A stretch of 63,188 nucleotides of DNA from an uncultured Candidatus Saccharibacteria bacterium. GTDB taxonomy: Bacteria > Patescibacteriota > Minisyncoccia > Phycocordibacterales > UBA9973. The notes beneath the pieces are model-generated. The model saw only the letters and a list, made by a program, of their open reading frames with translations, searched no databases and had not been told where the DNA came from. Position 1 is the first letter of the stretch; each line of letters begins with the position of its first letter. This document shows positions 8,352-47,213 of the stretch, one piece after another. Position numbers and translations under genes: made by a program. The stretch is taken from NCBI GenBank assembly GCA_964496425.1, contig CAZBZO010000006.1, forward strand, positions 1,190 through 64,377. Direction: 5' to 3'.

Positions 8352-8388
8352 AAATGTAAAATCCCCATTTGATGGGGATTTTACATTT
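8352..8388. terminator. bidirectional terminator
   Basis: 17-bp perfect inverted repeat aaatgtaaaatccccat/atggggattttacattt between convergent genes. Confidence 0.8.
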
Positions 8389-10873: not shown

Positions 10874-10910
10874 AAAAAATGTTAAATACCATTAGTGGTA
10901 CTTGGGACTA

Positions 10911-12614: not shown

Positions 12615-12619
12615 TTTTT

Positions 12620-12643
12620 CTACTAACTATTTCCTACTTACTA
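12620..12643. repeat. heptamer-period repeat, family A (inverted copy lacking one unit)
   Basis: Reverse complement tagtaagtagg-aaatagttagtag equals 17515-17545 minus tagtagt. Confidence 0.65.
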
Positions 12644-12645
12644 CC

Positions 12646-14340: not shown

Positions 14341-15992
14341 TAGCTAATATTGCTTTTATAGCAATCTTCACAAGATACATTCTCATACCCCCACGATCGT
14401 GGATAGTATCCAACAATATTTTTTGAACAATAAAAACATGAATAGTTTTCTCCTTGCGTGGGTGCAAGTAGCCGCATTCGACTCTTTGTACGTACATCAA
14501 AATGCACTCGTGGCAGGGCTATATTCTTTCTCTTAAGAAATGCGAGTTCGTCTGGCGCTATATTAAAACGCCACCCTGTTACAGGGCAAATAAGTGCCTG
14601 TTTTGAAATACTTCCTGAGATATCATGTATGCTATCAGGTAAATCATTCGTCGCGATCCCCTCTATATGATCTTCTCTGGAATCGTCCCAATATCCTCCT
14701 TGAGAGAGCACAAATTCCCTTGAGACTTCAGGAAAATAAATTTGTGCAGTTGTTAAATTATACGGACACAGTCCCATATTGTATGGGAGAAATTGTCCGT
14801 ATTCATTCCTGGCTCGCATATCGGAAATTATTGTTTCGCGAAGACTTTCATATTCTTCTTTTGTGTATTGTTTATTGAGAATGCAATATTTCTTCTTTCG
14901 TAGCCCTACACATCCAAAACAATATTCAACCTCTGCGCATTGGTCGAGGTACTCCGAATACCGACCATCAGACCACGAAGAATACTTAAGCTGATATCCA
15001 GCTGTTGCACAGCTATTTCTTCCCGAGAGCTCGATTTGCCAACAGCCTAACATATCAATACAGTCTGTGGCAGTACGGCCACGTAGGCAGTCGTAACAAT
15101 TTTCCGAATCTTCAAAGCTAAAAACATTATGACAATTATTACAGTTTGCAAGATAGGTACCTTCCGAATTATACGTATTCAAAGTAAAATTTTGTCGGTG
15201 AACAAAATCTTTTTTTAAAATCTCTTCGTATCGTTCTTTTAGTTTTTCCAAACTTTTGTTTGAACTTAGATCATATTCCTTGAGTTTTTCTACATATTCC
15301 TCTTTGGAATATTGCTTGTTCTCGATACAGTATTGCTTCCCGCGCAAATTCCAACACATGGTGCAATTGGTGCAATTACGGCAGTCATACAAAAATTGGG
15401 AATCCATACAATCCCGACAGTTACGCGAAAACAAAACATTAAAAGAATTGAAGGTATATGTACATTCGTAACAATTATCAAGGTTAAACACATGCGAAAT
15501 ATCAATCGAATCTTTTGTATCAAACGCACGATATCCATAGGAAAGATTCTCGCTACGAGCGATGGAACGAGAAAGATAACAATTTTTACATTCCCATGCA
15601 TCATCACACCAGTCAGAATTTGTATTTTGTGCACCTTGCTGATGTGGGCGCGGCACCTTTTCTTGTAGCTCTTTCAATTGGTCAAAGAAAGAGCGACTGG
15701 GGTCATACGTCAAACCAAAACTCATTGGGTCCCAAGCATCAGAAAACCACTCACTTGAAGTATAGATCGGATATCGGGCACTTGCCGGAAGTATAGTAAT
15801 GAGATTTTCTCCAGATAAATCAGACGTTCCCTTCCGAAACTTCCCAAATGGCCAAAAGGCGAAATAGTGCTTCATCCGACAGGAAAAACACTGGGTCGGA
15901 AGTGGAATCGCTACCTTCTCATACATAGAAAGCTCGTCAGGAGAAATTGTGAAACGTGTTTGGCAATGCTCGCAAACTTTTTGAGTATCCAT
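14340..15992 (-). CDS. Cys-rich multi-zinc-ribbon protein, paralog 3
   Basis: Same architecture, but second zinc site altered (SDLS...TSSE); TGG-TAGTCT 6 nt upstream. Confidence 0.85.
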   Translation of the reverse strand: MDTQKVCEHCQTRFTISPDELSMYEKVAIPLPTQCFSCRMKHYFAFWPFGKFRKGTSDLSGENLITILPASARYPIYTSSEWFSDAWDPMSFGLTYDPSRSFFDQLKELQEKVPRPHQQGAQNTNSDWCDDAWECKNCYLSRSIARSENLSYGYRAFDTKDSIDISHVFNLDNCYECTYTFNSFNVLFSRNCRDCMDSQFLYDCRNCTNCTMCWNLRGKQYCIENKQYSKEEYVEKLKEYDLSSNKSLEKLKERYEEILKKDFVHRQNFTLNTYNSEGTYLANCNNCHNVFSFEDSENCYDCLRGRTATDCIDMLGCWQIELSGRNSCATAGYQLKYSSWSDGRYSEYLDQCAEVEYCFGCVGLRKKKYCILNKQYTKEEYESLRETIISDMRARNEYGQFLPYNMGLCPYNLTTAQIYFPEVSREFVLSQGGYWDDSREDHIEGIATNDLPDSIHDISGSISKQALICPVTGWRFNIAPDELAFLKRKNIALPRVHFDVRTKSRMRLLAPTQGENYSCFYCSKNIVGYYPRSWGYENVSCEDCYKSNIS

Positions 15993-16023
15993 CTTTAGAG
16001 ACTACCATTTCTCTAATTAAATA

Positions 16024-17511
16024 CTAGATAAGGGGCTCGGCGGTCGCTTCAGCTTTGGCGGGTGCCGCTTCTTCCTCTATTTCTTCCCCACTAGCGTCAT
16101 CTTTGCGGGCTTTACGAGTAATAGCTGCTTTTTCTTGTGCGCTACGAATGATAGAGGATTCTTCTTCTTCAATGAGTTTCTTGGCAGCATCAGCGGTGAT
16201 GGCATATTTGCGGCGCGAAGCAGCAAGAATTTCTGCTTTGTATGACGGATGCGTGGCTGGCAAGACTTTCAAGGTCTCGGCAGAAAACGGATCGTAGGAT
16301 TCTCCATCGATTGTCATTTTGATATAGAACTCCGCAATACCTAAGTTGATCATATCTTTGATATCGAAGATCGGCGCAAATTCTGGCTTGAGCTCAACAG
16401 CGTCCTCGCCGCCCACACGGAAGCAAATAAGTGAGGCCACATTACCACGAACTGCTCGCTGAATCTTTTGCGACAGTTGTCCCAGGTACTGGTTGGCGAC
16501 AATAAGATTGAGGCCGTATTTACGGGCCTCAGAGAGAATGTTTTCAAATGTATCAGTGACCACGTTTTGAAACTCGTCCACGTAGAGATAAAAGTCTTGG
16601 CGGTCTTTAGGATCCATTTTTGCGCGCGCCATACCCGCCTGTTTGATTTTGGTGAGAAACATGGAACCAAAGAAGCTCGAGTTTTCTTCACCAATTTTTC
16701 CCTTAGAGAGATTGATGAGAATAATTTTTTGACTATTCATCAAGGCTTCAATATCGACTTTGTTTTCTTTTTGACCAAAAATATTTCGAAGCATCGGGTC
16801 GGAGAGAAACTGCCCGAGCTTGTTGACGAGCGGAATGATAGCGTCGGTGTCAAATTTTTCTGACCAGTCGGCAAATTCAATCGCCCAGAAGCGCTTGACC
16901 ATATCGTCTTCGATATACTCCACCACTTTCTGACGGTAGTTACGATCTGTGAGCATCGAGATCATACCGCGCATCGTGGCATGCGGATAGTCGAGGAGTG
17001 CGAGAGTCGTGAAACGAAAGACGTGCTCCAAGCGTGGCGTCCAGTTGGCCCCAAATTGTTTCTCCAACACTTCGATCAAACCCTGCGTGAGTTGGTGCTT
17101 GAAAGTGAGGTCGATATTTTGCAGTGGATTGAAAGAAGCTGGATAGTCGATATCGGACGGATCAATAATACACACATCCTCGATGCGATCTTCTGGCACG
17201 AAATTTAAAATATCATCGATAAATTCTCCGTGCGGATCGATCACACAGAGGCCATGGCCATAGGCAATATCTTGGCGCACCATCAGCTCTTGGAGTTTGG
17301 ATTTGCCGACACCAGACTTGCCGACGATGTACATATGACGTCTACGGTCAACACGCTTAATGCCGAAGATAAATTTCTTTTCTTCAAGTGCCGCTACATA
17401 GTTGGTGCGGCCAATAAAAACGATGTCAGCAGGATCCCCTTGCCCATACATCGGCAGCTCCGGTGGCGGTGGCGCATATTTGATTATTTGGATTTTATTG
17501 GCGCGTGGCAT
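16024..17511 (-). CDS. VirD4/TraD (HerA-FtsK)-like ATPase, second paralog
   Basis: Walker A GKSGVGKS, LYVDEFQN, SEARKY, ANQY; collinear with the ATPase core of 8381..10873. Confidence 0.85.
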   Translation of the reverse strand: MPRANKIQIIKYAPPPPELPMYGQGDPADIVFIGRTNYVAALEEKKFIFGIKRVDRRRHMYIVGKSGVGKSKLQELMVRQDIAYGHGLCVIDPHGEFIDDILNFVPEDRIEDVCIIDPSDIDYPASFNPLQNIDLTFKHQLTQGLIEVLEKQFGANWTPRLEHVFRFTTLALLDYPHATMRGMISMLTDRNYRQKVVEYIEDDMVKRFWAIEFADWSEKFDTDAIIPLVNKLGQFLSDPMLRNIFGQKENKVDIEALMNSQKIILINLSKGKIGEENSSFFGSMFLTKIKQAGMARAKMDPKDRQDFYLYVDEFQNVVTDTFENILSEARKYGLNLIVANQYLGQLSQKIQRAVRGNVASLICFRVGGEDAVELKPEFAPIFDIKDMINLGIAEFYIKMTIDGESYDPFSAETLKVLPATHPSYKAEILAASRRKYAITADAAKKLIEEEESSIIRSAQEKAAITRKARKDDASGEEIEEEAAPAKAEATAEPLI

Positions 17512-22410: not shown

Positions 22411-22511
22411 GCCAAATTGCTCATTGAGAGAGACTTGCGGAGGCCGACGGGCCGAGCAGGAACAAAAATTCACCAGAATTTTATGTGTTCTCTCACAATG
22501 AGCAATTTGGC
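22411..22511. repeat. structured palindromic element, copy 1
   Basis: About 23-bp terminal inverted repeat (first 16 bp perfect) enclosing GA-ggcc-GACG-ggcc-GA and aaaattc-ACCA-gaatttt. Confidence 0.75.
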
Positions 22512-22515
22512 GCCC

Positions 22516-24039
22516 TTACTCCCACTCCATCGTCGCTGGAGGTTTGTGTGTGATGTCGTAGACCACACGATTGATTTCTTTGACTTCGTTGGTTATACGC
22601 GTAGAAATACGCTCGAGAATGTCGTAAGGAATTTTGGCAAAGTTGGCGGTCATGGCGTCACGTGATTCCACGATCCGAAGAACAATCGGCCGCTTATAAC
22701 TTCGTTCGTCGCCCTGCACTCCCACACTTTTTATCGGTAGCAGCACTGGAAAGCTCATCCATATATCTTTCCAGTGTTTGGTTGGGCGAAGCTCATCTTC
22801 AATGATCTTCCCTGCCTGTCGTACAATTTCAACATTCTCCGGTGTCACTTCACCAATGATCCTGATCGCAAGTCCTGGTCCCGGAAATACTTGCCGCGTT
22901 TGGATGATCGGAGACAGGCGAAGCTCGCCGCCGAGCTTGCGGACCTCGTCTTTATAGAGCTCGCGAAGCGGCTCGTAGAGCTTCAATTTTAGATTTTTCG
23001 GCAGGCCTCCTACATTGTGATGAGATTTAATAGTTGACGAATGTTTAGTAAGACCTGACTCGATACGATCAGAATAAATCGTGCCTTGAATCAAGTAGTT
23101 TGCTTTTGCAGTTTTGGCTGCTTCGTAAAACACATCAATGAACACTTTGCCGATTATTTTTCGTTTGGTTTCAGGATCAGTCACACCTTTTAATGCTTTG
23201 AAGAATCGATCTGCGGCATAGACTACTTTGAGTTTCAATTTTTCTTTTGCGAATGCTCGTTTCACTTCTTCTGTTTCTTTATAGCGCATGAGGCCAGTAT
23301 CAACATAAATCGCAGTGAGAGCAGGGCCGATCGCGCGACCCACAAGCATCGCCGCCACGGAAGAATCAATACCGCCCGAGAGCCCGATGATCGCGCGCTC
23401 GCCTCCAAGAGTCGTCTTCGCTTCAGCGATAATATTTTTGAGAAGCTGTTTTGAAGACCATGTTTTTTTCGTCTTACAAATATCGAAAATGAAAGAGGCA
23501 TAAATCGTATCACCGTGCGGAGTATGACTGACTTCGGGATGAAATTGCACGCCGTATATACAACGACGAGGATCCATATATGCTGCAATAGTGGAATGTT
23601 CGGTCGAAGCAATTGCAGTAAAACCTGATGGTACTTTTACTACCACGTCTCGATGATTCATCCATACCATTTCTTTAGGCTTAAAACGCGCAAGAACACC
23701 GGACGTTTTTTGGCTCGACAAGAGCATTTGACCGTATTCTCCTGAGGCTCCGGAAACCACCTTGCCGCCAAGGAGTTTAGCAATCAGTTGATGCCCGTAG
23801 CAGATGCCAAGTATTGGAATCCCGAGTTCTAAAATTTTCGCATCAAACTTCGGAGCATTTTTTTCATACACTGATCGAGCCCCGCCGGATAGAATAATCC
23901 CGCGAATATGAGGAGACGATAGTTTACTGCTCGGTGTATCCGAAGGCAGTACTTCCGCGAAAACTCCGAGGTCTCGGATGCGGCGAGAAATCAAATGACA
24001 ATATTGACCGCCGAAATCAAGAATAACTATAGTATCCAT
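22516..24039 (-). CDS. guaA: GMP synthase (glutamine-hydrolysing)
   Basis: DFGGQY, ILGICYGHQ, QFHPEV, SGGIDS, QGTIYSD, FPGPGLAIR, KPPATMEWE. Confidence 0.97.
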   Translation of the reverse strand: MDTIVILDFGGQYCHLISRRIRDLGVFAEVLPSDTPSSKLSSPHIRGIILSGGARSVYEKNAPKFDAKILELGIPILGICYGHQLIAKLLGGKVVSGASGEYGQMLLSSQKTSGVLARFKPKEMVWMNHRDVVVKVPSGFTAIASTEHSTIAAYMDPRRCIYGVQFHPEVSHTPHGDTIYASFIFDICKTKKTWSSKQLLKNIIAEAKTTLGGERAIIGLSGGIDSSVAAMLVGRAIGPALTAIYVDTGLMRYKETEEVKRAFAKEKLKLKVVYAADRFFKALKGVTDPETKRKIIGKVFIDVFYEAAKTAKANYLIQGTIYSDRIESGLTKHSSTIKSHHNVGGLPKNLKLKLYEPLRELYKDEVRKLGGELRLSPIIQTRQVFPGPGLAIRIIGEVTPENVEIVRQAGKIIEDELRPTKHWKDIWMSFPVLLPIKSVGVQGDERSYKRPIVLRIVESRDAMTANFAKIPYDILERISTRITNEVKEINRVVYDITHKPPATMEWE

Positions 24040-24043
24040 ATTG

Positions 24044-25060
24044 TTAACTATTCTTTTTCGCCTCAGTAATCATCGGGTAAATCTCTAGAAGTACAAAAAG
24101 ACACGAAAGCGTCAGCGGCCCGAGAAGAAATCCAAGCGGTCCATAAAACGCCAAGCCGCCAAAAACTGAAAGAAGGACTAAAAAGGGATGAATGTTGACG
24201 TCACGACTCACTAGAAATGGCCGAAGCACATTGTCTACCAGACCGACGATCACCACTCCCCAAATCAAAAGCCCAACAGCTTGCAAAATATTGCCGGCGG
24301 CAAAAAGATAAATGATTGCTGGTCCCATAACAATCGCCGTACCGACTCCGGGAATGAGTGACGCAAATACTGTCACGCCGCCCCACAGAGCCGGCGATGG
24401 GATACCGAAAATCAAAAATCCAGCACCAGCAAGTATCCCCTGCACCAAGGCCACTACGAGCGTACCACGGACAATAGAGTTGATGGCGCGTCGCAGCTTG
24501 TCGAGAATTTCTTGGTCATAGACGGTGGCAAGCGGCGAAGCCGACATCATCGTACCGACGAGTTTTTTGCCATCACGGAGAAAGAAAAACAAAGCAACAA
24601 TTCCAAGAAATACGAGGAAGAGAATGTGGAGCACACTTGAGAAAATAGTGCTGACGCTGCCGAGGACACCAGCGAGTGCTGTTTGAATGTATGTGGCGAG
24701 ATTGAAGTCTGGTGCAAATAACTGTACTTTTGCTTCCAGCACTGAAAAAGCGGCATTGTTGAGATAGCCGTTACCGCTCGTAATAGTATAGAGATCTTTC
24801 GCTTCATTGAAAATATTTACAAAGAAAAATACCAAAGGTATCATAACGATGACACCGACAAGGAGAATTGTCATAAAGGCCGACACGCCCTGCCGTTTGA
24901 GTGATGATTTGAGCTTCAAGTAAAGCGGATAAAATACTACTGCTAAAATAGCGATCACCGCCAAAAACTTAAGAAATGGAAAGAAAAGGAGAATATTAAC
25001 GATAAAGACTAGTCCGAGGAGACCGGAGAAAAAGTAGAATTGGAGGTTTTTGCTGTTCAT
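24044..25060 (-). CDS. AI-2E family transporter
   Basis: Multi-TM protein with VDNVLRP and HPFLVLLSVFGG...GFLLGP signatures. Confidence 0.88.
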   Translation of the reverse strand: MNSKNLQFYFFSGLLGLVFIVNILLFFPFLKFLAVIAILAVVFYPLYLKLKSSLKRQGVSAFMTILLVGVIVMIPLVFFFVNIFNEAKDLYTITSGNGYLNNAAFSVLEAKVQLFAPDFNLATYIQTALAGVLGSVSTIFSSVLHILFLVFLGIVALFFFLRDGKKLVGTMMSASPLATVYDQEILDKLRRAINSIVRGTLVVALVQGILAGAGFLIFGIPSPALWGGVTVFASLIPGVGTAIVMGPAIIYLFAAGNILQAVGLLIWGVVIVGLVDNVLRPFLVSRDVNIHPFLVLLSVFGGLAFYGPLGFLLGPLTLSCLFVLLEIYPMITEAKKNS

Positions 25061-25108
25061 GGTTTTAGTATACCTAGAAGACCTTATTTTTCAAAATAAA
25101 ATCCTTTG

Positions 25109-25137
25109 TTGACAACAAAAGGCGAAAGGCATAGATT
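25109..25137 (+). promoter_or_regulatory. sigma70-type promoter TTGACA-N17-TAGATT
   Basis: Near-consensus, 39 nt upstream of ATG 25177. Confidence 0.7.
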
Positions 25138-25176
25138 AACAAGGAATTCATCAGTTCACCCTCAAAATTTACTGCC

Positions 25177-25551
25177 ATGAACCCACAATTTAAGAATGCT
25201 TCGATAGCTTTTGCCTTTATGATTTTCTTAAGTATAGCAGTGTACAAATTGTATGCCACATATCAACGCAAAGATGTTACCAGGCACGGAATTTGTTTTA
25301 ATTACACGCTGGGAGGAGGAAAGCTGGTTAATGTGGATAGTCTTCCACATACGATTACCAAAGTGTGGAAAAAATATAGAAAAGTAAATGGGAAACTGAT
25401 CAACCCAGAAAAAATATTGTGGACTATTACACTTAATCCTAATGATACTGCTTGGATTAAAAACGTTGCGAATTCAGGTTCCGGTTATTATATTTCTTCT
25501 GTAGCTGATCCTGAGAAAAAATATTTTGTCGTTCCGTATGACGAAATGTGA
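25177..25551 (+). CDS. hypothetical membrane-anchored protein (124 aa)
   Basis: N-terminal TM helix, AT-rich, own promoter. Confidence 0.65.
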   Translation: MNPQFKNASIAFAFMIFLSIAVYKLYATYQRKDVTRHGICFNYTLGGGKLVNVDSLPHTITKVWKKYRKVNGKLINPEKILWTITLNPNDTAWIKNVANSGSGYYISSVADPEKKYFVVPYDEM

Positions 25552-25576
25552 AATAATAAAATATTATTTGTTTGTA

Positions 25577-25603
25577 AGGCTTGGAAATTTTATTTCCAAG
25601 CCT
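25577..25603. terminator. bidirectional terminator
   Basis: aggcttggaaat-ttt-atttccaagcct between 25177..25551 and tRNA-Ala. Confidence 0.75.
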
Positions 25604-25614
25604 CTATTTTTTTG

Positions 25615-25685
25615 TGGACCTAAGGGGAATCGGACCCCTACTTCGTCCATGCCATGGACGCGTAATACCATTTTACTATAGGCCC
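25615..25685 (-). tRNA. tRNA-Ala(GGC)
   Basis: Cloverleaf GGGCCTA...TAGGTCC-A with G3:U70; anticodon arm CGTCC-ATGGCAT-GGACG; no encoded CCA. Confidence 0.9.
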
Positions 25686-25754
25686 GAAATGAATTTAAAC
25701 GCCACTAGTATATCGCAAGATGTTATTTTACGCATCTGGGCGTATACTCTACAT

Positions 25755-26396
25755 ATGACTACCTCTTCAAAAATAATGCTCGCTCTCATACTTGTTGTGC
25801 TCGGCTACGGGATTTTTTTATTGAGTAATACCGAGCCTCAGGATCTCCCCGTCCCTTCAAATCCTCTGCCATCTGGATTTGTTTCATATACAAACAACCA
25901 ATACCACTTCTCCCTGGCCTATCCGCAAACAGGTGAAGTTATTGTCGACAAAACAGAAATGGCGAACGTGGGCTATCTACCGACATGCGACATAGAAAAT
26001 GCAATTGTGTGTATTTTTCTTCCTCCTTCACTGTATCCCACTACCAACTTTCAAGGAGCAGGCGTATCAGTAAATATATTAAGTGATACAAGTACCGAAG
26101 CCAGTTGTGTAGCTCCCCGCTCTGATCTACCTGAAGACCCTCGTGCCGAAAGTGTAATGCTCAATGATAATGCATTTACCAAATACTCCGCCGGCGATGC
26201 GGCAATGAGTCATCAATCAATGGGAGCCGACTATCGCACTTTTTACAATAATACGTGTTACGAAATCACGACGCGCACCAATACCACGACATTTGAAGTC
26301 TACGAACCGGGTAGTATCGGTCTCTTCACTGATACACAAAAAACTGAAGTAGGAAATATACTTCTACAAATCGTGCAAAGCTTTGAGTTTAATTAG
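25755..26396 (+). CDS. secreted or membrane-anchored hypothetical protein
   Basis: N-terminal TM helix, YTNNQYHFSLAYP PsbP-like start, four Cys; ATG 25755 6 nt after TATACT (ORF-track start overlaps the tRNA). Confidence 0.7.
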   Translation: MTTSSKIMLALILVVLGYGIFLLSNTEPQDLPVPSNPLPSGFVSYTNNQYHFSLAYPQTGEVIVDKTEMANVGYLPTCDIENAIVCIFLPPSLYPTTNFQGAGVSVNILSDTSTEASCVAPRSDLPEDPRAESVMLNDNAFTKYSAGDAAMSHQSMGADYRTFYNNTCYEITTRTNTTTFEVYEPGSIGLFTDTQKTEVGNILLQIVQSFEFN

Positions 26397-26411
26397 ACCG
26401 AACCGCGCTAC

Positions 26412-27578
26412 CTATCGGCAGGCTTTGATTACTTTCATGTAGTACGCGACATATTTTTCGAGCGCCTTCTGTACTCCAAAGTCACGAGTTGCACGAACGA
26501 GAGCTTGTGCACCAAGACTCTCTACCAATTCCCTATCTGCTTCAAGTTCGAGTAGTTTCTTGGCAAAATCATTCACCTGCCCTACTCCACACAAGTAGCC
26601 TGTGGTACCGTGTTGCATAAATTCTTTGATGCCGCCAGCACGAGTCGCTAGGACAGGCTTGCCGTAGCTCATCGTCTCAAGTATCGCCATACCAAAGCTC
26701 TCTTCGCCTGATGTGTAGAGACCGATATCTGCTGCATTGATATAGTTTTCTATATCCATAATGTTGCGCTTTACGATCACACGATCAGCGATACCGAGTT
26801 TTTTGACCAATGCTTCATACGGAGCGAAGTCCCCGCCGGCGAGAACAAGCAGTTTGATCCTTGGGTTCTTTTTCACTTTCGCTATGATCGAAAGAAGATC
26901 CGGGATTCGTTTCACCGGACGGAGATTGGACAAATGAATAACCAGAAAATCTGCCGCCGAAACCCCAAGGCTTTTCCGCACGACTTCTTTTGATTTTGTG
27001 ATTTTTTTAGGATTGTAGAAATTGTGTATGACTTCAATATGCTTTTTTGTTTTTAAAACCTTTTCGGTATCTTTTTTCAAGCTCTCAGATACAGCAGTGA
27101 CGCCACAGGAGGTCTCAATAGAATATTTGATGACCGGCATGACTCTTTTGTCTCGCGCCAAAAGGGTAATGTCTGTACCGTGAAGTGTCGTGACGACATT
27201 TGGAAAATGAAGTCCTTCTTCAAGGGCAATGTTTTTAGCGAGGAGTGCAGCGGTGGCATGTGGCACAGCATAATGCACATGCAAAATGTCGAGCGTATAT
27301 TTCTGGCTGATCTCCACCATTTTTACTGCCAGAGGCAGCGTATAGTCCGGATATTTGAAAAGCTCGTAGCCATTGAAATCTACTTTATGAAAAAATATTC
27401 GTGGCTGAGCGAGATCGAGCAAAAACGGTGGATCGTAGCTTATAAAATGCACACTGTGTCCCGCGCGTGCAAGCTCAGCGCCCAACTGGGTTGCAACAAT
27501 ACCCGAGCCGCCGACCGTGGGATAGCACACAATACCGATGCGGAGTTTTGGGTTGCGAGATTTTGAATTTGAGGACAT
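26412..27578 (-). CDS. bshA: N-acetyl-alpha-D-glucosaminyl L-malate synthase (bacillithiol biosynthesis)
   Basis: CYPTVGGSG, HVHYAVPHA, TTLHGTDIT, SNLRPVKR, ESFG motifs. Confidence 0.88.
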   Translation of the reverse strand: MSSNSKSRNPKLRIGIVCYPTVGGSGIVATQLGAELARAGHSVHFISYDPPFLLDLAQPRIFFHKVDFNGYELFKYPDYTLPLAVKMVEISQKYTLDILHVHYAVPHATAALLAKNIALEEGLHFPNVVTTLHGTDITLLARDKRVMPVIKYSIETSCGVTAVSESLKKDTEKVLKTKKHIEVIHNFYNPKKITKSKEVVRKSLGVSAADFLVIHLSNLRPVKRIPDLLSIIAKVKKNPRIKLLVLAGGDFAPYEALVKKLGIADRVIVKRNIMDIENYINAADIGLYTSGEESFGMAILETMSYGKPVLATRAGGIKEFMQHGTTGYLCGVGQVNDFAKKLLELEADRELVESLGAQALVRATRDFGVQKALEKYVAYYMKVIKACR

Positions 27579-27640
27579 TGAAAATATTTTAAATTAATTC
27601 TAGGTAGCGATTCGATTTTTCTAACAAGACGGATTGTGCT

Positions 27641-27725
27641 AAACATATATGAGGTATTTGGAGTGCAACGGCACGACAACGAAGGGAATTTTCTAGCAAG
27701 AAAATGACCGACCTCATATATGTTT
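27641..27725. repeat. structured palindromic element, copy 2
   Basis: Perfect 15-bp terminal inverted repeat enclosing GA-gtgc-AACG-gcac-GA and attttct-AGCA-agaaaat. Confidence 0.75.
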
Positions 27726-27739
27726 TGTACGTGTAGTTT

Positions 27740-28444
27740 CTAATAGTTCCGCGACGATCCAAGATCTCCGAGATTTTCCACTCTTATAGAATCTGAGGCC
27801 CAAAGTCCGACCGCATATTCAACGCCGATTGTAGCTCCGAAATAGCGTGCTTTACTACTCACCAAATTGAGATATTCCCGAGTTTTCATCTGACTCTTAT
27901 GGCATGACATAGCTTTGACCCAGTCTTCATAGTGAGCGGAAACATCAACAATAATATCTGGCCGTGCATCAAACTCTGCGCTTGATGGATAAAAATAAAG
28001 CGCATCAATAGCATGCACAGGAATATTTTTAATTTCTTCTAGTCCACCATAGCGGGCAAGGCGTGCAGCATCACGTACTGTTTCTGCGACCGCGCGATGG
28101 TCAGGATGTTGGTTTGCCATAAGGGATGGCGCAAGTACGATGTCGGGTTGGTATACGCGAATGATTTCCGCCAAACGAATTCTGTTCTCAGGTGTGTTTA
28201 GGATATGGCAATCCCCTCCCATGTCGATACATTCTATTTCAGCGCCGATGAATTTTGCCGCCGCTTCTGCCTCAGCTTTGCGGCTCTCTGGCGTACCGTT
28301 TGTACCTGCTTCTCCAAGCGAGCCGATGACTATTTTCACCTGGGCGCCATTCTTTATTTCCTTGATCAAAAGCCCTCCACAGCCAAATTCCACATCGTCC
28401 GGATGCGCCCCAAATGCTAGGATTTTTTTAGTTTGTTGTTTCAT
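27740..28444 (-). CDS. bshB1: bacillithiol biosynthesis deacetylase (PIG-L/LmbE family)
   Basis: AHPDDVEFG, HPDH, CHKSQ motifs; adjacent to bshA. Confidence 0.82.
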   Translation of the reverse strand: MKQQTKKILAFGAHPDDVEFGCGGLLIKEIKNGAQVKIVIGSLGEAGTNGTPESRKAEAEAAAKFIGAEIECIDMGGDCHILNTPENRIRLAEIIRVYQPDIVLAPSLMANQHPDHRAVAETVRDAARLARYGGLEEIKNIPVHAIDALYFYPSSAEFDARPDIIVDVSAHYEDWVKAMSCHKSQMKTREYLNLVSSKARYFGATIGVEYAVGLWASDSIRVENLGDLGSSRNY

Positions 28445-28481
28445 ATATTTAAGCAAAGCTAGTATAGCAGAAAATGAGATT

Positions 28482-28994
28482 TTAGGGTTTGAGGCTATTT
28501 AAAAAAGTTTTCTCTTCCCTTTCATTACGCAAAATAACAACTTTCTTATTATTGGAATACCCCAGCACTTTCTCTCTAATTTCTTTTGTTGGATACTTCC
28601 AAATAAATTTGATTAAATTCCAATGTAATTGTTCTTTGTGACTCTCTGGCATATCTGGTCGTCGTCGACGATGATATTTTATTCGTCTCCATAGCAGTCT
28701 CCAGTAAATAACTAATTTAGAAAATTCAAAATAGATTATCATGTCAGCCGCAGAAAGTCGCATATCAAAGGACTTTGATTTCATATAATTACCATCAATA
28801 ATCCATTGAGCCCCTTTCATCATTTCTTCTTGTTGTGCAATAAAATTATCTTGCGTAATACCACCTTTTTCAACCCAAAAAATCTTATCCAAATGATAGA
28901 CCGGGATATTTAAGATACTCCCTATTTTATTAGCAAGTGTAGTTTTGCCCGAACCAGGGCAGCCGACAATTGCGATTTTGCGTGGCGTAAACAT
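28482..28994 (-). CDS. P-loop kinase-like protein (DNA topology modulation/FlaR family)
   Basis: IVGCPGSGKTTLA, VYHLDKIFW, WIIDGNY; ATG 28994. Confidence 0.8.
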   Translation of the reverse strand: MFTPRKIAIVGCPGSGKTTLANKIGSILNIPVYHLDKIFWVEKGGITQDNFIAQQEEMMKGAQWIIDGNYMKSKSFDMRLSAADMIIYFEFSKLVIYWRLLWRRIKYHRRRRPDMPESHKEQLHWNLIKFIWKYPTKEIREKVLGYSNNKKVVILRNEREEKTFLNSLKP

Positions 28995-28995
28995 G

Positions 28996-29772
28996 TTAAA
29001 TAGTGGTTGGAATATAAGCGAGGTCTTGTTGATCGATCGCATCTCGCTCAACAAATGTGACGTCTGGAAACTCATCTTTTTTCAAATACCCACCTTCGCC
29101 GACACCAGATACATAATGCGTCGCATGAAGGACCGACTGCATCCAAGCAAAGCGCTCTTCACGACCGGGATTTTTTTGCCATTTTTCGATAGTCTGGGGC
29201 ATAGGAATCGTAAAATAGTTACCACCGCCTTCATGGAGTCGCAGTGCGCCTTCGTGGAGCTCCGCTCGCACGATTTCGCCTTCATAGGACACATCCGCGT
29301 AGTATTCTGTCTGCACAATGGCATTCATGCGAATATCTCTGTCGCTCGAACGTACCACTTCAATACCGTCGAGTAACCCCATTTTTTCATAGAGCGAGAG
29401 ACAAAAGTCAGCAACCGTCGTCGCTTTGACGCTTGCGAACATTTCAACTAATCTTTTATCGACATAGCGCGGGAGCTTGCGTATCATATCTTCCTGCCAG
29501 CCCGCAGCGATTTTTTTTATATACAACGGTGAATATTTTTTCTCAATTTTATTGTCTACTAGGAAATTGAGTCGGACTTCTTTTTTAGTTTCCGGATCGA
29601 TGAATGTTGTAATCGTTTCTTTGTAGTCTGCATCAGAGTCATGGTAGAAGAAAACAATTCTCCCACCGATCTCTTTTTGCAATCTTCGCGCCGTCTCTAT
29701 CTTGGCATACAAATACCGCTTCGGAAAAAATCCGTTGGGTTGTTGACCGAAAGCGATAATGGGGGAAGACAT
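28996..29772 (-). CDS. short BshC-like protein (258 aa)
   Basis: FGQQP...YAKIETARRL...IVFFYHDSDAD parallels the BshC N-terminal TGQQ...YK...FW..EDHD; C-terminal YVSGVGEGGY; located in the bsh cluster. Confidence 0.6.
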   Translation of the reverse strand: MSSPIIAFGQQPNGFFPKRYLYAKIETARRLQKEIGGRIVFFYHDSDADYKETITTFIDPETKKEVRLNFLVDNKIEKKYSPLYIKKIAAGWQEDMIRKLPRYVDKRLVEMFASVKATTVADFCLSLYEKMGLLDGIEVVRSSDRDIRMNAIVQTEYYADVSYEGEIVRAELHEGALRLHEGGGNYFTIPMPQTIEKWQKNPGREERFAWMQSVLHATHYVSGVGEGGYLKKDEFPDVTFVERDAIDQQDLAYIPTTI

Positions 29773-29826
29773 AGATTTAATAAAAATTATACACAAGATG
29801 CAATTAAACCAGAATCGTCGAGGCTG

Positions 29827-29908
29827 AGATTTTTGGGATGCTTGTGAGGCTGGCGAGCCGAGCACGAGGAATTTTTCACCAGAAAAATATCCGTCTTCCC
29901 AGAAATCT
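29827..29908. repeat. structured palindromic element, copy 3
   Basis: 12-bp terminal inverted repeat (11/12) enclosing GA-ggct-GGCG-agcc-GA and atttttc-ACCA-gaaaaat. Confidence 0.72.
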
Positions 29909-29923
29909 TTGCCGAGTAAGATC

Positions 29924-31666
29924 TTACACCCGCTCGCCGATCTGCTGACGCCACATAGCATAGTAGAGTCCTTTAGCTTCCAGAAGCTCGGCATGCGCGC
30001 CATGCTCAACAATTTTTCCTTTTTCCAGCACATAGATACGATCAGCGTGCATGATCGTCGATAGCCGGTGCGCGATCAAGACACTGACTCGAGTACTTCC
30101 CGCTGACACGTCACGGATAGTTTTGGTGATCTCTTCTTCGGTGATCGAGTCAAGTGAGCTTGTCGCTTCATCAAAAACCAAAATCGTCGGTTTGCGCAAA
30201 AGCGCCCGCGCGATCGAAAGACGTTGCTTTTCACCACCAGAAACTTTCACGCCACCTTCCCCGATCACCGTATCAAGACCTGACCCGCCGCGGGAAAGGA
30301 GATTTTGGCATTGAGCTTGTGTCAGTGCGAGCAGACATTCCTCGTCGGTTGCTTTTGGATTGACGAAAAGCAAGTTTTCACGAATGGTGCCAGCAAAGAG
30401 CTGAGTATCCTGAGTGACAAATCCAAACTGCGCACGCAGAGTATTGAGATCTAGATCTTTCATCGACACATCATTGAAAAATACTCCACCCGTAAGTGGC
30501 TCATAGAGCCCGACCAATAGCTTTACCAAGCTCGTCTTGCCCGAACCTGAGGGTCCCACAAAAGCGATCGTCTCGCCGCTTTTGGCCTCAAAACTAATAT
30601 GCTCAAGTGCATGAGTCTTTCCGCTTTTGTATCCAAAGGAGACATCGCGAAATTCAAGTTTTCCGATTTTATCCATAGGAGTAGCATTTTCCGGCGTAGG
30701 CTCGACGGGCATATGCATAATCTCTTCAAATTTTTTGAGCGCGACTTCGGCTTCGCGGTAGTTGTTGATGACGTTGCCGAGCTCTTGCAGTGGCCCAAAT
30801 ATAAAGAAGGAGTAAATATAGAGTGAGAAAAATTGTCCGAAGGTCACCGTGCGATTGAACACCAAATACAAAAGAAATGCCAAGACGAGTGTGCGCATGA
30901 GATTGATCATGGTGCCTTGTACAAAACTAATACTCCGGATATAACGGAGCTTTTTGAGTTCAAGTTTGAGAATCTTCTCCGTGGTTGCGTTTAGCCGGCT
31001 GATCTCCTGCCCCACCAGTCCGAGACTTTTCACCAGCTCAATATTGCGCAGACTTTCAGTCGTAGCTCCGGCAAGCGCAGTCGTTTCCGCCAAAATGATG
31101 TTTTGAATCCGCTTTACTTTTGAAGTCAAAAAATATGAAAGCCCGCCGATGATCGGTATGGTAAGCGCATACACGAGAGCGACGCCCCAATAAATCGTAA
31201 ACGCATAAATCGAAACAAAAATAAATCCAATGATCGACACGAAAGCCACGTTGATAAAAGCGTTGACGAAGGTCTCGCTTGATGTGCGTACTTTCTGAAG
31301 CGTGCCCAAAGTCTCCCCGCTTCGCTGATCTTCAAAGACTTCGTACGGCAAGGCCAAAGAGTGCTCGATGCCGTCGTTGTATATTTTGGCACCTGTGCGC
31401 TGAGTGACCGTGTTTAGATAATAATCCTGAAAATTCTTGGCGACGCGGGATACAAAGGCGACGCCGACTGCCATCAAAAGTAAATACGACACTCCGCGAA
31501 TAAATTCACTTAAGGTATACGTATCAAACTTCGTGGCATAGTCGTCGATGATATGACGAAAAATCAAAGGATCCAGAAGCGAAAAGGTCTGATTGATAGC
31601 AGCCAGCAAAAGGACGAGTAGGCAGAGCTTCCAATGATGTTTGAGGTATTTGAGGAGGATTTTCAT
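29924..31666 (-). CDS. ABC exporter, fused permease/ATPase
   Basis: GPSGSGKT, VSGGEKQR, LVFDEATSSLD; ATG 31666 (alternative 31684). Confidence 0.92.
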   Translation of the reverse strand: MKILLKYLKHHWKLCLLVLLLAAINQTFSLLDPLIFRHIIDDYATKFDTYTLSEFIRGVSYLLLMAVGVAFVSRVAKNFQDYYLNTVTQRTGAKIYNDGIEHSLALPYEVFEDQRSGETLGTLQKVRTSSETFVNAFINVAFVSIIGFIFVSIYAFTIYWGVALVYALTIPIIGGLSYFLTSKVKRIQNIILAETTALAGATTESLRNIELVKSLGLVGQEISRLNATTEKILKLELKKLRYIRSISFVQGTMINLMRTLVLAFLLYLVFNRTVTFGQFFSLYIYSFFIFGPLQELGNVINNYREAEVALKKFEEIMHMPVEPTPENATPMDKIGKLEFRDVSFGYKSGKTHALEHISFEAKSGETIAFVGPSGSGKTSLVKLLVGLYEPLTGGVFFNDVSMKDLDLNTLRAQFGFVTQDTQLFAGTIRENLLFVNPKATDEECLLALTQAQCQNLLSRGGSGLDTVIGEGGVKVSGGEKQRLSIARALLRKPTILVFDEATSSLDSITEEEITKTIRDVSAGSTRVSVLIAHRLSTIMHADRIYVLEKGKIVEHGAHAELLEAKGLYYAMWRQQIGERV

Positions 31667-31719
31667 AGGGTATTGAGGTGGCATTATAACACATTGCTAC
31701 CAGCTCGTTTAAATTTAAA

Positions 31720-42049: not shown

Positions 42050-42276
42050 GACTATCTTTAAAAATCATTATTTCGAAGGCATATCTGCTTTCGAACCCTC
42101 TATATTAACAATTGTTCAAACGACTGACTATTGCAATGTATAATCGCTATGCTCTGTAATTACGATTATTGTCACAAATAACAGGTTCGAGTCCTACTGG
42201 GTCATAAAACCTTTTTTGTGAAAAATAGAGAACAAAAAAAGCCTTGATACTAAAGGCTTTGTTATTACTACCATAG

Positions 42277-42320
42277 GTGGACCGTACAGGACTCGAACCT
42301 GCCACCCCCTCATTGCAAAT
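42277..42320 (-). repeat. att-type duplication of the 3' half of tRNA-Ala(TGC)
   Basis: 44 bp identical to 46000-46043; identity ends at the anticodon loop. Confidence 0.92.
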
Positions 42321-43260: not shown

Positions 43261-43400
43261 GTTCTTTGTTTTTTGGTTTCTATAAAAGAGTGGGGCTAGG
43301 TCCCTACTATAGAAACCAAAAAACATCTGAAAAACTGCTTTCTGTTTATAGTAATACAAATATTTACTTTGTCAAACGCCAATTTCAATTACGCTAGTCG

Positions 43401-45969: not shown

Positions 45970-46000
45970 CTATTTGAGCCTTATTTTATAAGGATACCAG

Positions 46001-46073
46001 TGGACCGTACAGGACTCGAACCTGCCACCCCCTCATTGCAAATGAGGTGCTCTACCAGATGAGCTAACGGCCC
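46001..46073 (-). tRNA. tRNA-Ala(TGC)
   Basis: GGGCCGTTAGCTCATCTGGTAGAGC-A-CCTCA-TTTGCAA-TGAGG...GGTTCGAGTCC-TGTACGGTCC-A; G3:U70. Confidence 0.96.
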
Positions 46074-47151: not shown

Positions 47152-47213
47152 GGAGTAAGTATACCGCAGAGTAAAACAAAAAACACCGCTTTGGTGTTTT
47201 TTGTTTTACTGTT

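What the first reader, a model, noticed from the sequence alone, without database searches (positions are those of the whole stretch)
22411..29908. Dispersed element family conserved in structure but not sequence (three copies with covariation)
Seen: 22411-22511, 27641-27725 and 29827-29908 each have a different terminal inverted repeat (12-23 bp) around the same internal layout. Hairpin 1 is GA-[4-bp stem]-RRCG-[stem]-GA (ggcc/GACG/ggcc; gtgc/AACG/gcac; ggct/GGCG/agcc). About 9-11 nt later, hairpin 2 is a 7-bp stem with an ASCA loop (aaaattc/ACCA; attttct/AGCA; atttttc/ACCA). All three are in the same orientation, just downstream of a stop codon in minus-strand gene strings. The stems change compensatorily. 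Inference: either a REP/MITE-like element recognised as ssDNA hairpins by an HUH (RAYT/TnpA-like) enzyme, or an unannotated structured 3'-UTR RNA.
Basis: partly seen in the sequence, partly recalled or inferred. Interest (0 to 1): 0.78.

Follow-up and report, generated by a model that had tools for sequence, protein, structure and literature searches.

The report
Y-shaped palindromic repeat family in Patescibacteria
The three small hairpin elements are real, diverged members of a large and apparently undescribed family of about 85-180 bp palindromic insertion elements, found here only in ultra-small Patescibacteria (CPR) bacteria; a long copy-specific stem carries a strongly conserved Y-shaped tip, and copies sit just after stop codons or in-frame inside essential genes.

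Summary
Each of the three loci is a long hairpin capped by a three-way junction: P2 has a 4-bp stem, a GRCG loop and tandem G.A pairs; P3 has a 7+3-bp stem and an ASCA loop.

A covariance model built only from 136 copies from other sources finds exactly these three sites in the window (80, 71 and 54 bits; next hit 12 bits).

The family is large. All 30 taxonomically named hits among 32 in 185,579 reference genomes are Patescibacteria.

Covariation is strong (P2b 98.5% and P3 95.7% paired, with changes on both sides in every pair). There is no Rfam match, and I found no paper describing it.

It behaves as mobile palindromic DNA:
- Near-identical 118-nt copies lie in unrelated flanks.
- Copies within one genome form families.
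- Orthologous sites are filled, decayed or inverted.
- About 14% of copies lie in-frame inside genes (tsaD, pcrA, iscS-like).
- Intergenic copies sit a median 9 nt from a stop codon, in either orientation.

The mismatch spectrum (G.U 151, A.C 123; tRNA controls 43:1) argues against a classical functional RNA. The mobilising enzyme is unknown, and no HUH or transposase gene is in the window.

I classify it as a new variant of the REP/MITE/RPE kind.

The parts
22411..22511 (+). Copy 1, whole hairpin (101 nt), 4 nt downstream of the guaA stop codon (minus-strand gene 22516-24039)
   Evidence: Inverted repeat I1. Fold -55 kcal/mol, z -9.1. R2 hit 22421-22502 at 70.9 bits. Hairpin extent 101 nt.
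22411..22433 (+). Copy 1, P1 5' arm. It pairs with 22489-22511; a single A.A mismatch sits where other copies carry tandem G.A
22434..22460 (+). Copy 1, P2: outer helix CTTGC/GCAGG, internal loop GGA/GA, stem GGCC/GGCC, loop GACG (22446-22449)
22462..22486 (+). Copy 1, P3: ACA/TGT with bulged A22483, stem AAAATTC/GAATTTT, loop ACCA (22472-22475)
22489..22511 (+). Copy 1, P1 3' arm
27636..27730 (+). Copy 2, whole hairpin (arms 27636-27655 / 27711-27730), 9 nt downstream of the stop codon of the PIG-L family gene (27740-28456, minus strand). This is the most diverged copy, with 2 extra nt in J2/3
   Evidence: Inverted repeat I5. Fold z -7.6. R2 hit 27643-27724 at 54.1 bits.
27661..27676 (+). Copy 2, P2 core: GA-GTGC-AACG-GCAC-GA
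27688..27705 (+). Copy 2, P3 stem-loop: ATTTTCT-AGCA-AGAAAAT
29826..29909 (+). Copy 3, whole hairpin (P1 29826-29838 / 29897-29909, with two G.U pairs on the + strand), about 15 nt downstream of the stop codon of the ABC transporter gene (29924-31684, minus strand). This copy is closest to the family consensus
   Evidence: R2 hit 29828-29908 at 80.3 bits.
29846..29861 (+). Copy 3, P2 core: GA-GGCT-GGCG-AGCC-GA
29871..29888 (+). Copy 3, P3 stem-loop: ATTTTTC-ACCA-GAAAAAT

Best explanation
The three loci are old, diverged copies of a non-autonomous, palindromic interspersed DNA element family that is spread through Patescibacteria (CPR).

Anatomy. A copy is one long imperfect palindrome (median 116 nt; 85-101 nt in the window). 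Folded as a single strand, it is a long stem (P1, often continued by an outer stem P0) capped by a Y-shaped three-way junction:
- P2 has a 4-bp stem, a GRCG loop and tandem G.A pairs below it.
- P3 has a 7+3-bp stem, an AGCA or ACCA loop and a bulged A.
- The stems are free to change as long as they pair.
- The loops, the G.A pairs and the junction nucleotides are nearly invariant.

Shown here:
- The whole hairpin, stems included, moves as a unit to unrelated sites.
- It forms families within one genome.
- It is tolerated only where it does little harm: a few nucleotides past a stop codon, or in-frame in surface loops of proteins, where it is probably translated.
- It can be lost, decay, or lie inverted at an orthologous site.

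Inferred:
- The conserved apex is the cis-acting module that a trans-acting enzyme, not yet identified, recognises on folded single-stranded DNA (or a cruciform) of one strand. This is the logic of integron attC sites, IS200/IS605 and REP hairpins, and the T-shaped terminal hairpins of parvoviruses.
- The two arms are kept complementary by exchange or repair within the palindrome rather than by RNA-level selection.
- Recombination between the arms would explain why both orientations occur.

In this window the copies have no visible partner gene and look inactive.
For: Reality and family membership:
- R2, built without window sequences, finds exactly the three sites.
A narrower pattern found 32 loci in the reference genomes; all 30 named ones are Patescibacteria. 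The viral collection gave 0.

Structure:
- 83% of cells are paired against 63.6% in shuffles. All 30 pairs show changes on both sides. P2b is 98.5% paired and P3 95.7%.
- Invariant unpaired nucleotides are G24 A25 / G39 A40, the loops G-R-C-G and A-G-C-A, A51 and A75.

Mobility as DNA:
- L016, L117 and L042 carry the same 118-nt hairpin at 97-99% identity in unrelated flanks.
- Five copies in one Paceibacterota genome bin (MAG) share arms at 82-92% identity over 111-129 nt.
- Contigs carry 2-4 copies in both orientations.

Insertion, loss and inversion at orthologous sites:
- The iscS-like gene is filled in L038, L079 and L082, has a short remnant in L138, and carries a different apex in L013.
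- tsaD is filled at the same site in five lineages, inverted in L106.
- pcrA is filled in L012, L022 and L040, and empty in L121.

Placement:
- 23 of 161 copies lie inside ORFs. The core reads SATARARGIFQQKNIR in 10 of 18 long read-through cases.
- Intergenic copies lie a median 9 nt from a stop codon and 59 nt from a start codon.

DNA rather than RNA:
- G.U 151 against A.C 123 in the element, against 43:1 in tRNAs of the same loci.
- Orientation relative to flanking genes is mixed.

One strand is special:
- Purine-purine mismatches number 451 against 227 pyrimidine-pyrimidine. The + strand folds better in 112 of 135 copies.

Not previously described, as far as I could check:
- No Rfam family matches.
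- No paper was found.
Against: - No transposase, HUH enzyme or recombinase was found in the window. None is enriched near 148 copies. The mobilising activity is therefore purely inferred.
- No target-site duplication or conserved terminal sequence could be defined.
- The apex is almost identical in orthologous insertions whose host genes have diverged to about 68% nucleotide identity. A merely parasitic, immobile resident would be expected to decay. This points to a host-level function, to ongoing gene conversion among copies, or to repeated re-insertion.
- Part of the apparent cross-lineage conservation was imposed by my search patterns.
- Conserved tandem G.A pairs are also classic RNA motifs.
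- The + strand lies preferentially on the C-rich strand (68:34). That is not the strand expected for elements that use the lagging-strand template.
Confidence: 0.55

Rival explanations
1. A functional structured RNA. One version is a cis-acting module in mRNA 3' ends or an antisense transcript, serving as a stability or processing signal bound by a conserved protein. Another is a multi-copy small RNA gene whose three-way junction and tandem G.A pairs form the protein-binding platform. On this view, mobility and ORF insertions are side effects.
For: - Strong covariation in P2, P3 and P1.
- Near-invariant loops, junction and tandem sheared G.A pairs, which are typical RNA-protein recognition motifs.
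- The + strand folds better in 112 of 135 copies.
- The apex is conserved far above the surrounding coding sequence at orthologous sites.
- Copies sit next to stop codons, as REP-type 3' stabilisers do.
Against: - G.U:A.C is 151:123, against 43:1 in tRNAs from the same contigs.
- Orientation relative to the adjacent genes is mixed: 31 antisense, 18 sense, 18 convergent, 11 divergent. All three window copies are antisense to the gene they follow.
- No conserved promoter or terminator flanks the hairpin.
- Copies occur inside ORFs in both orientations.
- No Rfam family matches.
Confidence: 0.25
2. A host DNA site with a chromosomal function, for example a hairpin or cruciform bound by a replication, repair or nucleoid protein, or a single-strand initiation or restart signal. 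On this view it spread and was then kept by selection in streamlined Patescibacteria genomes.
For: - Phylum-wide conservation of the apex.
- The mismatch spectrum is DNA-like.
- Orientation correlates with GC skew at 68:34, p = 0.002, more strongly than with coding strand (57:45).
- The density of roughly one copy per tens of kb would suit a chromosomal signal.
Against: - Sites are lost or decayed at orthologous positions without replacement (L138 and L013).
- Copies are clustered rather than evenly spaced: three within 7.5 kb and none in the other 55 kb of the window.
- Insertion into essential ORFs is not what a beneficial site would need.
- GC skew is confounded with coding strand in these loci (rho 0.75).
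Confidence: 0.12
3. An RNA-level intervening sequence (an intron-like or RNase III-excised hairpin) that is removed from transcripts, so that interrupted genes are restored.
For: - Copies interrupt essential genes (tsaD, pcrA, iscS-like) as long stable hairpins.
- Patescibacteria are known for many insertions in rRNA genes (PMC11270868).
Against: - In every ORF-internal case examined, the reading frame stays open through the whole element in the frame of the host gene. Excision would not require that.
- In the iscS-like gene the 3' arm supplies the hydrophobic residues just before the conserved HTDA motif, so removing the hairpin would delete needed codons.
- Most copies are intergenic.
- There is no match to any known ribozyme or intron family.
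Confidence: 0.05

Closest known systems
Rickettsia palindromic elements (RPE; Ogata et al. 2000, cited from my own knowledge; mentioned in PMC1779305)
   Same: Palindromic repeats of about 100-150 bp, dispersed in a reduced genome. They lie both between genes and in-frame inside protein-coding genes, where they add a peptide segment without destroying the protein. No transposase of their own is known.
   Different: RPE families are conserved in sequence and confined to one genus. Here the stems are copy-specific, a Y-shaped apex is conserved across several Patescibacteria classes, and pairing is kept by compensatory change. No sequence similarity to RPEs was tested.
REP / REPIN elements mobilised by RAYT (HUH Y1) transposases
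   Same: Extragenic palindromes packed against gene 3' ends, in both orientations and in many copies. They are recognised as folded single-stranded DNA. REPINs are long hairpins.
   Different: REPs are simple 20-40 nt hairpins with a conserved GTAG or CGTC 5' tetranucleotide, and the arms are the conserved part. Here the apex is conserved and the arms vary. No RAYT gene was seen, and ORF-internal copies are common.
Integron attC sites
   Same: Defined by structure rather than sequence. They function as a folded single strand whose conserved mispaired or extrahelical bases mark the active strand, and they lie directly after ORFs.
   Different: In attC the conserved boxes (R''/L''-L'/R') are at the base of the hairpin and the tip is variable. 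Here it is the reverse. There is no integrase and no cassette array, and the genes in between are housekeeping genes (guaA and others).
Bacterial MITEs such as ERIC, Correia/NEMIS, RUP, Nezha
   Same: Non-autonomous imperfect palindromes of about 100-170 bp, inserted in or near transcription units, forming families within a genome.
   Different: MITEs have family-specific conserved terminal inverted repeats and target-site duplications that match a parent insertion sequence. Here the termini differ between copies, no duplication could be defined and no parent element was found.
T-shaped terminal hairpins of parvoviruses, recognised by an HUH Rep nickase (architecture only)
   Same: A long stem capped by two short hairpins forming a three-way junction, existing in two orientations of the tip ('flip' and 'flop'). 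The folded DNA shape plus a few bases is what the enzyme reads.
   Different: Those hairpins are the ends of linear single-stranded viral genomes, not interspersed chromosomal repeats. No Rep-like gene was found, and the viral collection gave no hit. This is an analogy of form only.
Small dispersed repeats (SDR4-6) of Nostoc (Elhai et al. 2008; paper not held, abstract recalled from memory)
   Same: Dispersed elements that share a secondary structure with compensatory changes but little sequence, sometimes nested in one another.
   Different: SDRs are 21-27 nt and cyanobacterial. The window is not cyanobacterial: the cyanobacterial HIP1 octamer GCGATCGC occurs 2 times against 1 expected.

Membership tests
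The Patescibacteria three-way-junction palindromic element family defined here (models R1/R2) | Match to a covariance model built without the window copies: P1, P2 (GRCG loop, tandem G.A) and P3 (ASCA loop, bulged A) | tested here: met
   80.3, 70.9 and 54.1 bits; next hit 12.4 bits
The Patescibacteria three-way-junction palindromic element family defined here (models R1/R2) | Long flanking inverted repeat that closes the junction | tested here: met
   Arms of 23, 20 and 13 bp; family median 33 paired nt per arm
The Patescibacteria three-way-junction palindromic element family defined here (models R1/R2) | Host is a Patescibacteria (CPR) genome | tested here: inconclusive
   All 30 named genome hits are CPR. 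Window proteins are 40-80% identical to proteins on element-bearing loci, including Nomurabacteria and Uhrbacteria MAGs. The window's own species was not identified.
REP/REPIN-RAYT | 20-40 nt hairpin with a conserved 5' GTAG or CGTC tetranucleotide, the sequence of the arms being conserved | tested here: not met
   Arms differ between copies. CGTC occurs only as the complement of the P2 loop.
REP/REPIN-RAYT | A RAYT (Y1 HUH transposase) gene in the genome, typically flanked by REPs | tested here: inconclusive
   None among the 51 window ORFs. No family is enriched near 148 copies. Whole genomes could not be searched.
MITE (non-autonomous DDE-transposon derivative) | Conserved terminal inverted repeats shared by the family | tested here: not met
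   Termini differ across copies; only subfamilies share arms.
MITE (non-autonomous DDE-transposon derivative) | Target-site duplication | tested here: inconclusive
   No direct repeat at the ends of the L016/L117/L042 copies or of the copies in MAG DATEUR01. A palindromic duplication could not be excluded.
MITE (non-autonomous DDE-transposon derivative) | Near-identical copies at unrelated sites | tested here: met
   118 nt at 97-99% identity in three unrelated flanks. This was seen in the family, not among the window copies.
RPE-like selfish palindromes in coding sequence | In-frame insertions in conserved proteins, with the host frame kept open | tested here: met
   tsaD, pcrA, an iscS-like gene, a dus-like gene and others. 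None of the three window copies is inside an ORF.
Integron attC | R''/R' core sites (RYYYAAC ... GTTRRRY) at the base of the hairpin, and a nearby intI gene | tested here: not met
   No such boxes at the hairpin bases. No integrase in the window.
Any Rfam 15 RNA family, including the hammerhead, twister, twister-sister, hatchet and pistol ribozymes | Covariance-model match | tested here: not met
   Whole window at gathering score: tRNAs only. Copy 1 at E up to 10: noise. Six consensus-like loci at E up to 1: no hit on the element.
Functional structured RNA in general | G.U pairs tolerated far more than A.C in helices | tested here: not met
   151:123 in the element; 43:1 in 54 tRNAs of the same loci

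The most novel reading that the evidence does not exclude
The conserved Y-shaped apex is the recognition module of a mobility or maintenance system not yet described and specific to Patescibacteria. In that system an enzyme reads a folded DNA three-way junction rather than terminal sequences. The element would then be a shape-addressed transposon: its stems can take any sequence, it can invert in place, and it can live inside essential genes. Alternatively, the apex has been domesticated as a phylum-wide functional nucleic-acid module.
Probability: 0.3. Interest if true: 0.85.

Novelty: new variant of a known kind. Interest (0 to 1): 0.7.

Why it matters
Patescibacteria make up a large share of bacterial diversity. 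They have genomes of about 1 Mb and are thought to carry few mobile elements.

A repeat family that spans several of their classes would matter in four ways:
- It would be a new marker of the group.
- It would be a source of protein insertions in core genes such as tsaD, pcrA, iscS-like and holA-like genes.
- It would be a source of annotation errors, because small spurious ORFs are called on it.
- It would give a tractable route to an unknown structure-specific DNA enzyme.

It is also a warning for covariation-based RNA discovery. DNA palindromes give excellent covariation. The G.U:A.C ratio, compared with tRNAs from the same contigs, separates the two cases.

Tried and rejected
1. Cyanobacterial origin and Elhai's small dispersed repeats. 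I guessed this from one copy of the cyanobacterial HIP1 octamer. I rejected it because HIP1 occurs 2 times against 1 expected, and the window proteins match loci that carry the element, two of them named CPR genome bins. The paper itself is not held.

2. Known ribozymes or riboswitches (hammerhead, twister, twister-sister, hatchet, pistol, guanidine-II, glnA). The core motifs do not fit by eye, and there is no Rfam hit.

3. Integron attC sites. There are no R boxes, and the conserved part is at the wrong end of the hairpin.

4. Similarity to plasmids. Only noise was found.

5. Viral contigs. No hits.

6. A conserved neighbouring protein. The largest neighbour cluster covers 9 of 120 loci and consists of ordinary housekeeping genes.

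7. The idea that insertion creates the stems by inverted duplication of host flank. The iscS-like gene suggested it, because the 3' arm overlaps codons before HTDA. It is weakened by three observations: L138 looks like a deletion remnant, tsaD arms are entirely extra sequence, and arms travel with the element.

8. Searching protein databases with the translated core. The word-indexed search found almost nothing. The exhaustive search of representatives gave only 20 hits, one of which is a translated CRISPR array.

9. An autonomous parent with the two halves of the apex separated by an ORF. No orphan P2 hairpin occurs in 1.1 Mb.

10. ARAGORN bracket strings as a mismatch control. They mark only valid pairs, so I replaced them with counts at fixed stem positions.

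Full report
**1. The observation**

The three stretches are as described. Each has a terminal inverted repeat of different sequence:
- 23 nt at 22411-22433 / 22489-22511
- 20 nt at 27636-27655 / 27711-27730
- 13 bp at 29826-29838 / 29897-29909

The arms lie 55-58 nt apart.

Inside each repeat are two hairpins. The first is GA-(4 bp)-RRCG-(4 bp)-GA. The second is a 7-bp A/T-rich stem with an ACCA or AGCA loop.

ViennaRNA folds each stretch into a three-way junction far more stable than shuffled sequence (z -4.1 to -9.1 on the + strand). The first hairpin continues into an outer 3-6 bp helix, so the GA/GA becomes an internal loop of tandem G.A pairs. The second continues into a 3-bp helix with a bulged A.

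All three copies are on the + strand. Their bases lie 4-15 nt beyond the stop codons of minus-strand genes: guaA, a PIG-L family gene and an ABC transporter. The window holds no further copy.

**2. The copies belong to a very large family**

I wrote a pattern from the shared features, leaving the stems of hairpin 1 free. It gave these results:
- no hit in 2.9 million viral contigs;

Every one of the 120 hits shows the same layout. The core is nearly constant: cttgg-GAG-CGC-GACG-GCG-CGA-GCACGAGGAATTTTTC-AGCA-GAAAAAT-ATCCGTGC. Each copy also has its own long flanking inverted repeat. The contigs range from 32 to 63% G+C.

On an alignment of 136 copies from other sources (A4):
- 83% of cells pair, against 63.6% in column shuffles and at most 56.5% when partners are slid.
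- All 30 pairs show changes on both sides.
- P2b is 98.5% paired and P3 95.7% (the first alignment gave the same picture).

Unpaired positions are almost invariant: G24 A25 and G39 A40 (the tandem G.A), loop G-R-C-G, loop A-G/C-C-A, the junction A, and the bulged A.

A covariance model from these 136 sequences contains nothing from the window. It scores the three window sites at 80.3, 70.9 and 54.1 bits, and nothing else above 12.4 bits.

The window copies are short and diverged members: 85-101 nt against a family median of 116 nt.

**3. Host range**

A narrower pattern, run over one genome for each of 185,579 species, gave 32 loci. All 30 that carry a taxon name are Patescibacteria: Paceibacterota, Nomura-, Zambryski-, Vogel-, Kaiser-, Adler- and Uhrbacteria, Parcubacteria and Saccharibacteria.

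My first guess of a cyanobacterium was wrong. The cyanobacterial HIP1 octamer occurs twice against one expected. The window's proteins are 40-80% identical to proteins on element-bearing loci, including Nomurabacteria and Uhrbacteria MAGs. The same contig occurs, 100% identical, in three Logan assemblies and three NCBI metagenome assemblies.

**4. The full element**

Outside the 81-nt model the stem continues. The median is 33 paired nt per arm.

In many copies a self-pairing 5'-CGAG / 5'-CGAG motif interrupts the stem. This is another tandem G.A. It sits about 6 bp below the junction, or at the boundary with an outer stem.

A large subfamily shares the arm consensus AAATAGTCTT-C-GA-GAAATG ... 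CATTTC-GA-G-AAGA-G-CTATTT. Window copy 1 is a diverged version of it, with an A.A mismatch in place of the G.A pair.

**5. It moves as DNA**

- L016, L117 and L042 carry the same 118-nt hairpin at 97-99% identity, stems included, in completely unrelated flanks. One of them is in-frame in what appears, from one sequence motif only, to be a tRNA-dihydrouridine synthase (dus) gene.
- Five copies in one Paceibacterota MAG are 82-92% identical over 111-129 nt and differ by paired changes in the arms.
- Three copies in one Saccharibacteria MAG share lineage-specific core variants.
- Many contigs carry 2-4 copies in both orientations.
- No target-site duplication or conserved terminus could be defined.
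- No neighbouring protein family recurs.
- No copy of hairpin 1 exists apart from hairpin 2 in 1.1 Mb.

**6. Where it sits**

Of 161 distinct copies, 23 lie inside long ORFs. For the rest, the hairpin base is a median 9 nt from the nearest stop codon and 59 nt from the nearest start codon.

Orientation relative to co-directional neighbours is mixed: 31 antisense, 18 sense, 18 between convergent genes and 11 between divergent genes.

Inside genes the host frame runs through the whole element. The core reads SATARARGIFQQKNIR in 10 of 18 clear cases, and ...GYFSAEKFLVLAPSRSQ in the commonest reverse frame.

- tsaD carries the element at the same loop in five lineages, once inverted.
- pcrA carries it in three lineages, and a relative lacks it.
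- An iscS-like gene carries it in three lineages. One relative keeps only a 12-residue remnant, and another has a different apex between similar arms.
- A 289-aa protein that may be HolA-like (named from its sequence by eye, not tested) and a 294-aa membrane protein with the in-frame core turned up in the exhaustive protein search.
- In the iscS-like gene the 3' arm encodes the hydrophobic residues just before the conserved HTDA motif. The hairpin therefore cannot be excised whole from the mRNA, and the insert is most likely translated, as in Rickettsia palindromic elements.

**7. RNA or DNA?**

Covariation shows only that one strand pairs with itself. Four further observations bear on the question.

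(a) Mismatch spectrum. In the helices of the element, G.U-type pairs number 151 and A.C-type 123. In the outer arms the counts are 192 and 119. In the acceptor, anticodon and T stems of 54 tRNAs from the same contigs the counts are 43 and 1. Selection on an RNA would tolerate G.U and purge A.C. Near-equality is what transitions in a DNA palindrome would give.

(b) Orientation relative to transcription is mixed, and the window copies are antisense to the genes they follow.

(c) One strand is nevertheless special. Purine-purine mismatches, mostly the conserved G.A pairs, outnumber pyrimidine-pyrimidine ones 451 to 227. The + strand folds better in 112 of 135 copies.

(d) The + strand lies on the C-rich strand 68:34 (p = 0.002). 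In these loci, however, GC skew is tied to coding strand (rho 0.75).

Together these favour a DNA element that is read as a folded single strand or cruciform of defined polarity. Integron attC sites, IS200/IS605 and REP hairpins, and the T-shaped terminal hairpins of parvoviruses work this way. That comparison rests on established knowledge of those systems and is not a test made here.

**8. Mechanism: shown and inferred**

Shown:
- the family and its structure;
- its restriction to Patescibacteria among named genomes;
- its mobility as a unit;
- its families within genomes;
- its gain, loss and inversion at orthologous sites;
- its placement after stop codons and in-frame in ORFs.

Inferred:
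- the apex is the cis-acting site of an unidentified trans-acting enzyme;
- the arms are kept complementary by exchange or repair within the palindrome. Orthologous iscS-like copies have arms that are perfect over 27-29 bp yet about 60% alike between lineages;
- recombination between the arms inverts the apex.

Unexplained: the apex is almost unchanged where the host gene has diverged to about 68% nucleotide identity. That fits gene conversion among copies, repeated re-insertion, or a host-level function. This is why the RNA and chromosomal-site rivals keep appreciable probability.

**9. Comparison with known systems**

No Rfam 15 family matches. Searches of the paper library by sequence, by translated peptide and by topic found no description.

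The closest known kinds are:
- RPEs, which share the in-frame palindromes;
- REP/REPIN elements, which share the extragenic hairpins at 3' ends;
- attC sites, which share structure over sequence and strand-marking mismatches;
- MITEs.

It fails the defining features of each:
- REP: there is no GTAG or CGTC tag, and the arms are not the conserved part.
- attC: there are no R boxes and no integrase.
- MITE: there are no shared termini and no demonstrable duplication.

It is therefore best called a new variant of the interspersed-palindrome kind. Its distinguishing feature is an apex conserved across several Patescibacteria classes.

**10. Verdict for the window**

The three copies are diverged from one another (about 68% mean column identity), have no partner gene in 63 kb, and look like old residents rather than active elements.

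The family to which they led is the interesting result.

Noticed in passing
window 42278-42320 (-) and 46000-46073 (-): The last 43 nt of tRNA-Ala(TGC), from the anticodon loop to the 3' end, are duplicated 3.7 kb from the intact gene, in the same orientation. The two repeats bracket three ORFs: a 595-aa AAA_21/DUF3226 ATPase (43820-45607), a small protein with a weak Excalibur-domain hit, and a 261-aa ORF with no hit. This looks like the scar of an element integrated at the tRNA, possibly a small defence islet. No integrase was found.
   Followed up: partly
window 42180-42205 (+): A second tRNA-like fragment (T arm plus acceptor 3' strand, CAGGTTCGAGTCCTACTGGGTCA) lies inverted about 90 nt from the tRNA-Ala fragment. 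Neither ARAGORN nor Rfam calls a gene here.
   Followed up: partly
L062:1296-1378, L044:1060-1142, L114:8992-9074, L111:3766-3848: A sister family has the same overall layout but different loops: P2 GAGGCTGTCGAGCC with a GUCG loop, and a P3 tip ending in AAGCTT(C). It scores only 36-44 bits with R1 and co-occurs on contigs with the main family.
   Followed up: no
L124:2646-2746 and L031:12982-13057: A small G+C-rich palindrome, CCTGCCTGCC(G)GGCAGGCAGG, is nested inside copies of the element. This suggests a second, even smaller insertion element in the same genomes.
   Followed up: no
L013:3235-4593 and L138 (about 3290-3330): At the iscS-like insertion site, L013 has similar arms around an unrelated apex (CAGGTCCTCGGATGAGGGAGGACGAGGAGCCAGACCGTTC). 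L138 keeps only a 12-residue remnant. Together they show decay or replacement of the apex at one orthologous site.
   Followed up: partly
window 8381-17511 (-): Two TrwB/VirD4-like coupling-protein ATPases (8381-10873 and 16024-17511) flank three ORFs of about 560 aa with no Pfam match. Those three are 34-41% identical to ORFs of a Nomurabacteria MAG (L136).
   Followed up: no
window 43267-43325 and 47170-47210: Two perfect 18-bp inverted repeats unrelated to the family. The second is GGTG-T-rich and looks like a terminator.
   Followed up: no
proteins P0001-P0005 (from public gene calls): Gene callers have predicted small proteins of 25-68 aa that are simply translations of copies of the element (...LGSATARARGIFQQKNIRAL...). 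This is a recurrent annotation artefact.
   Followed up: partly
L036:4146-4218 and L015:6054-6434: In two loci the element lies within about 60-100 nt of a stable RNA gene: a tRNA in L036 and RNase P RNA in L015. With only two cases this may be chance.
   Followed up: no
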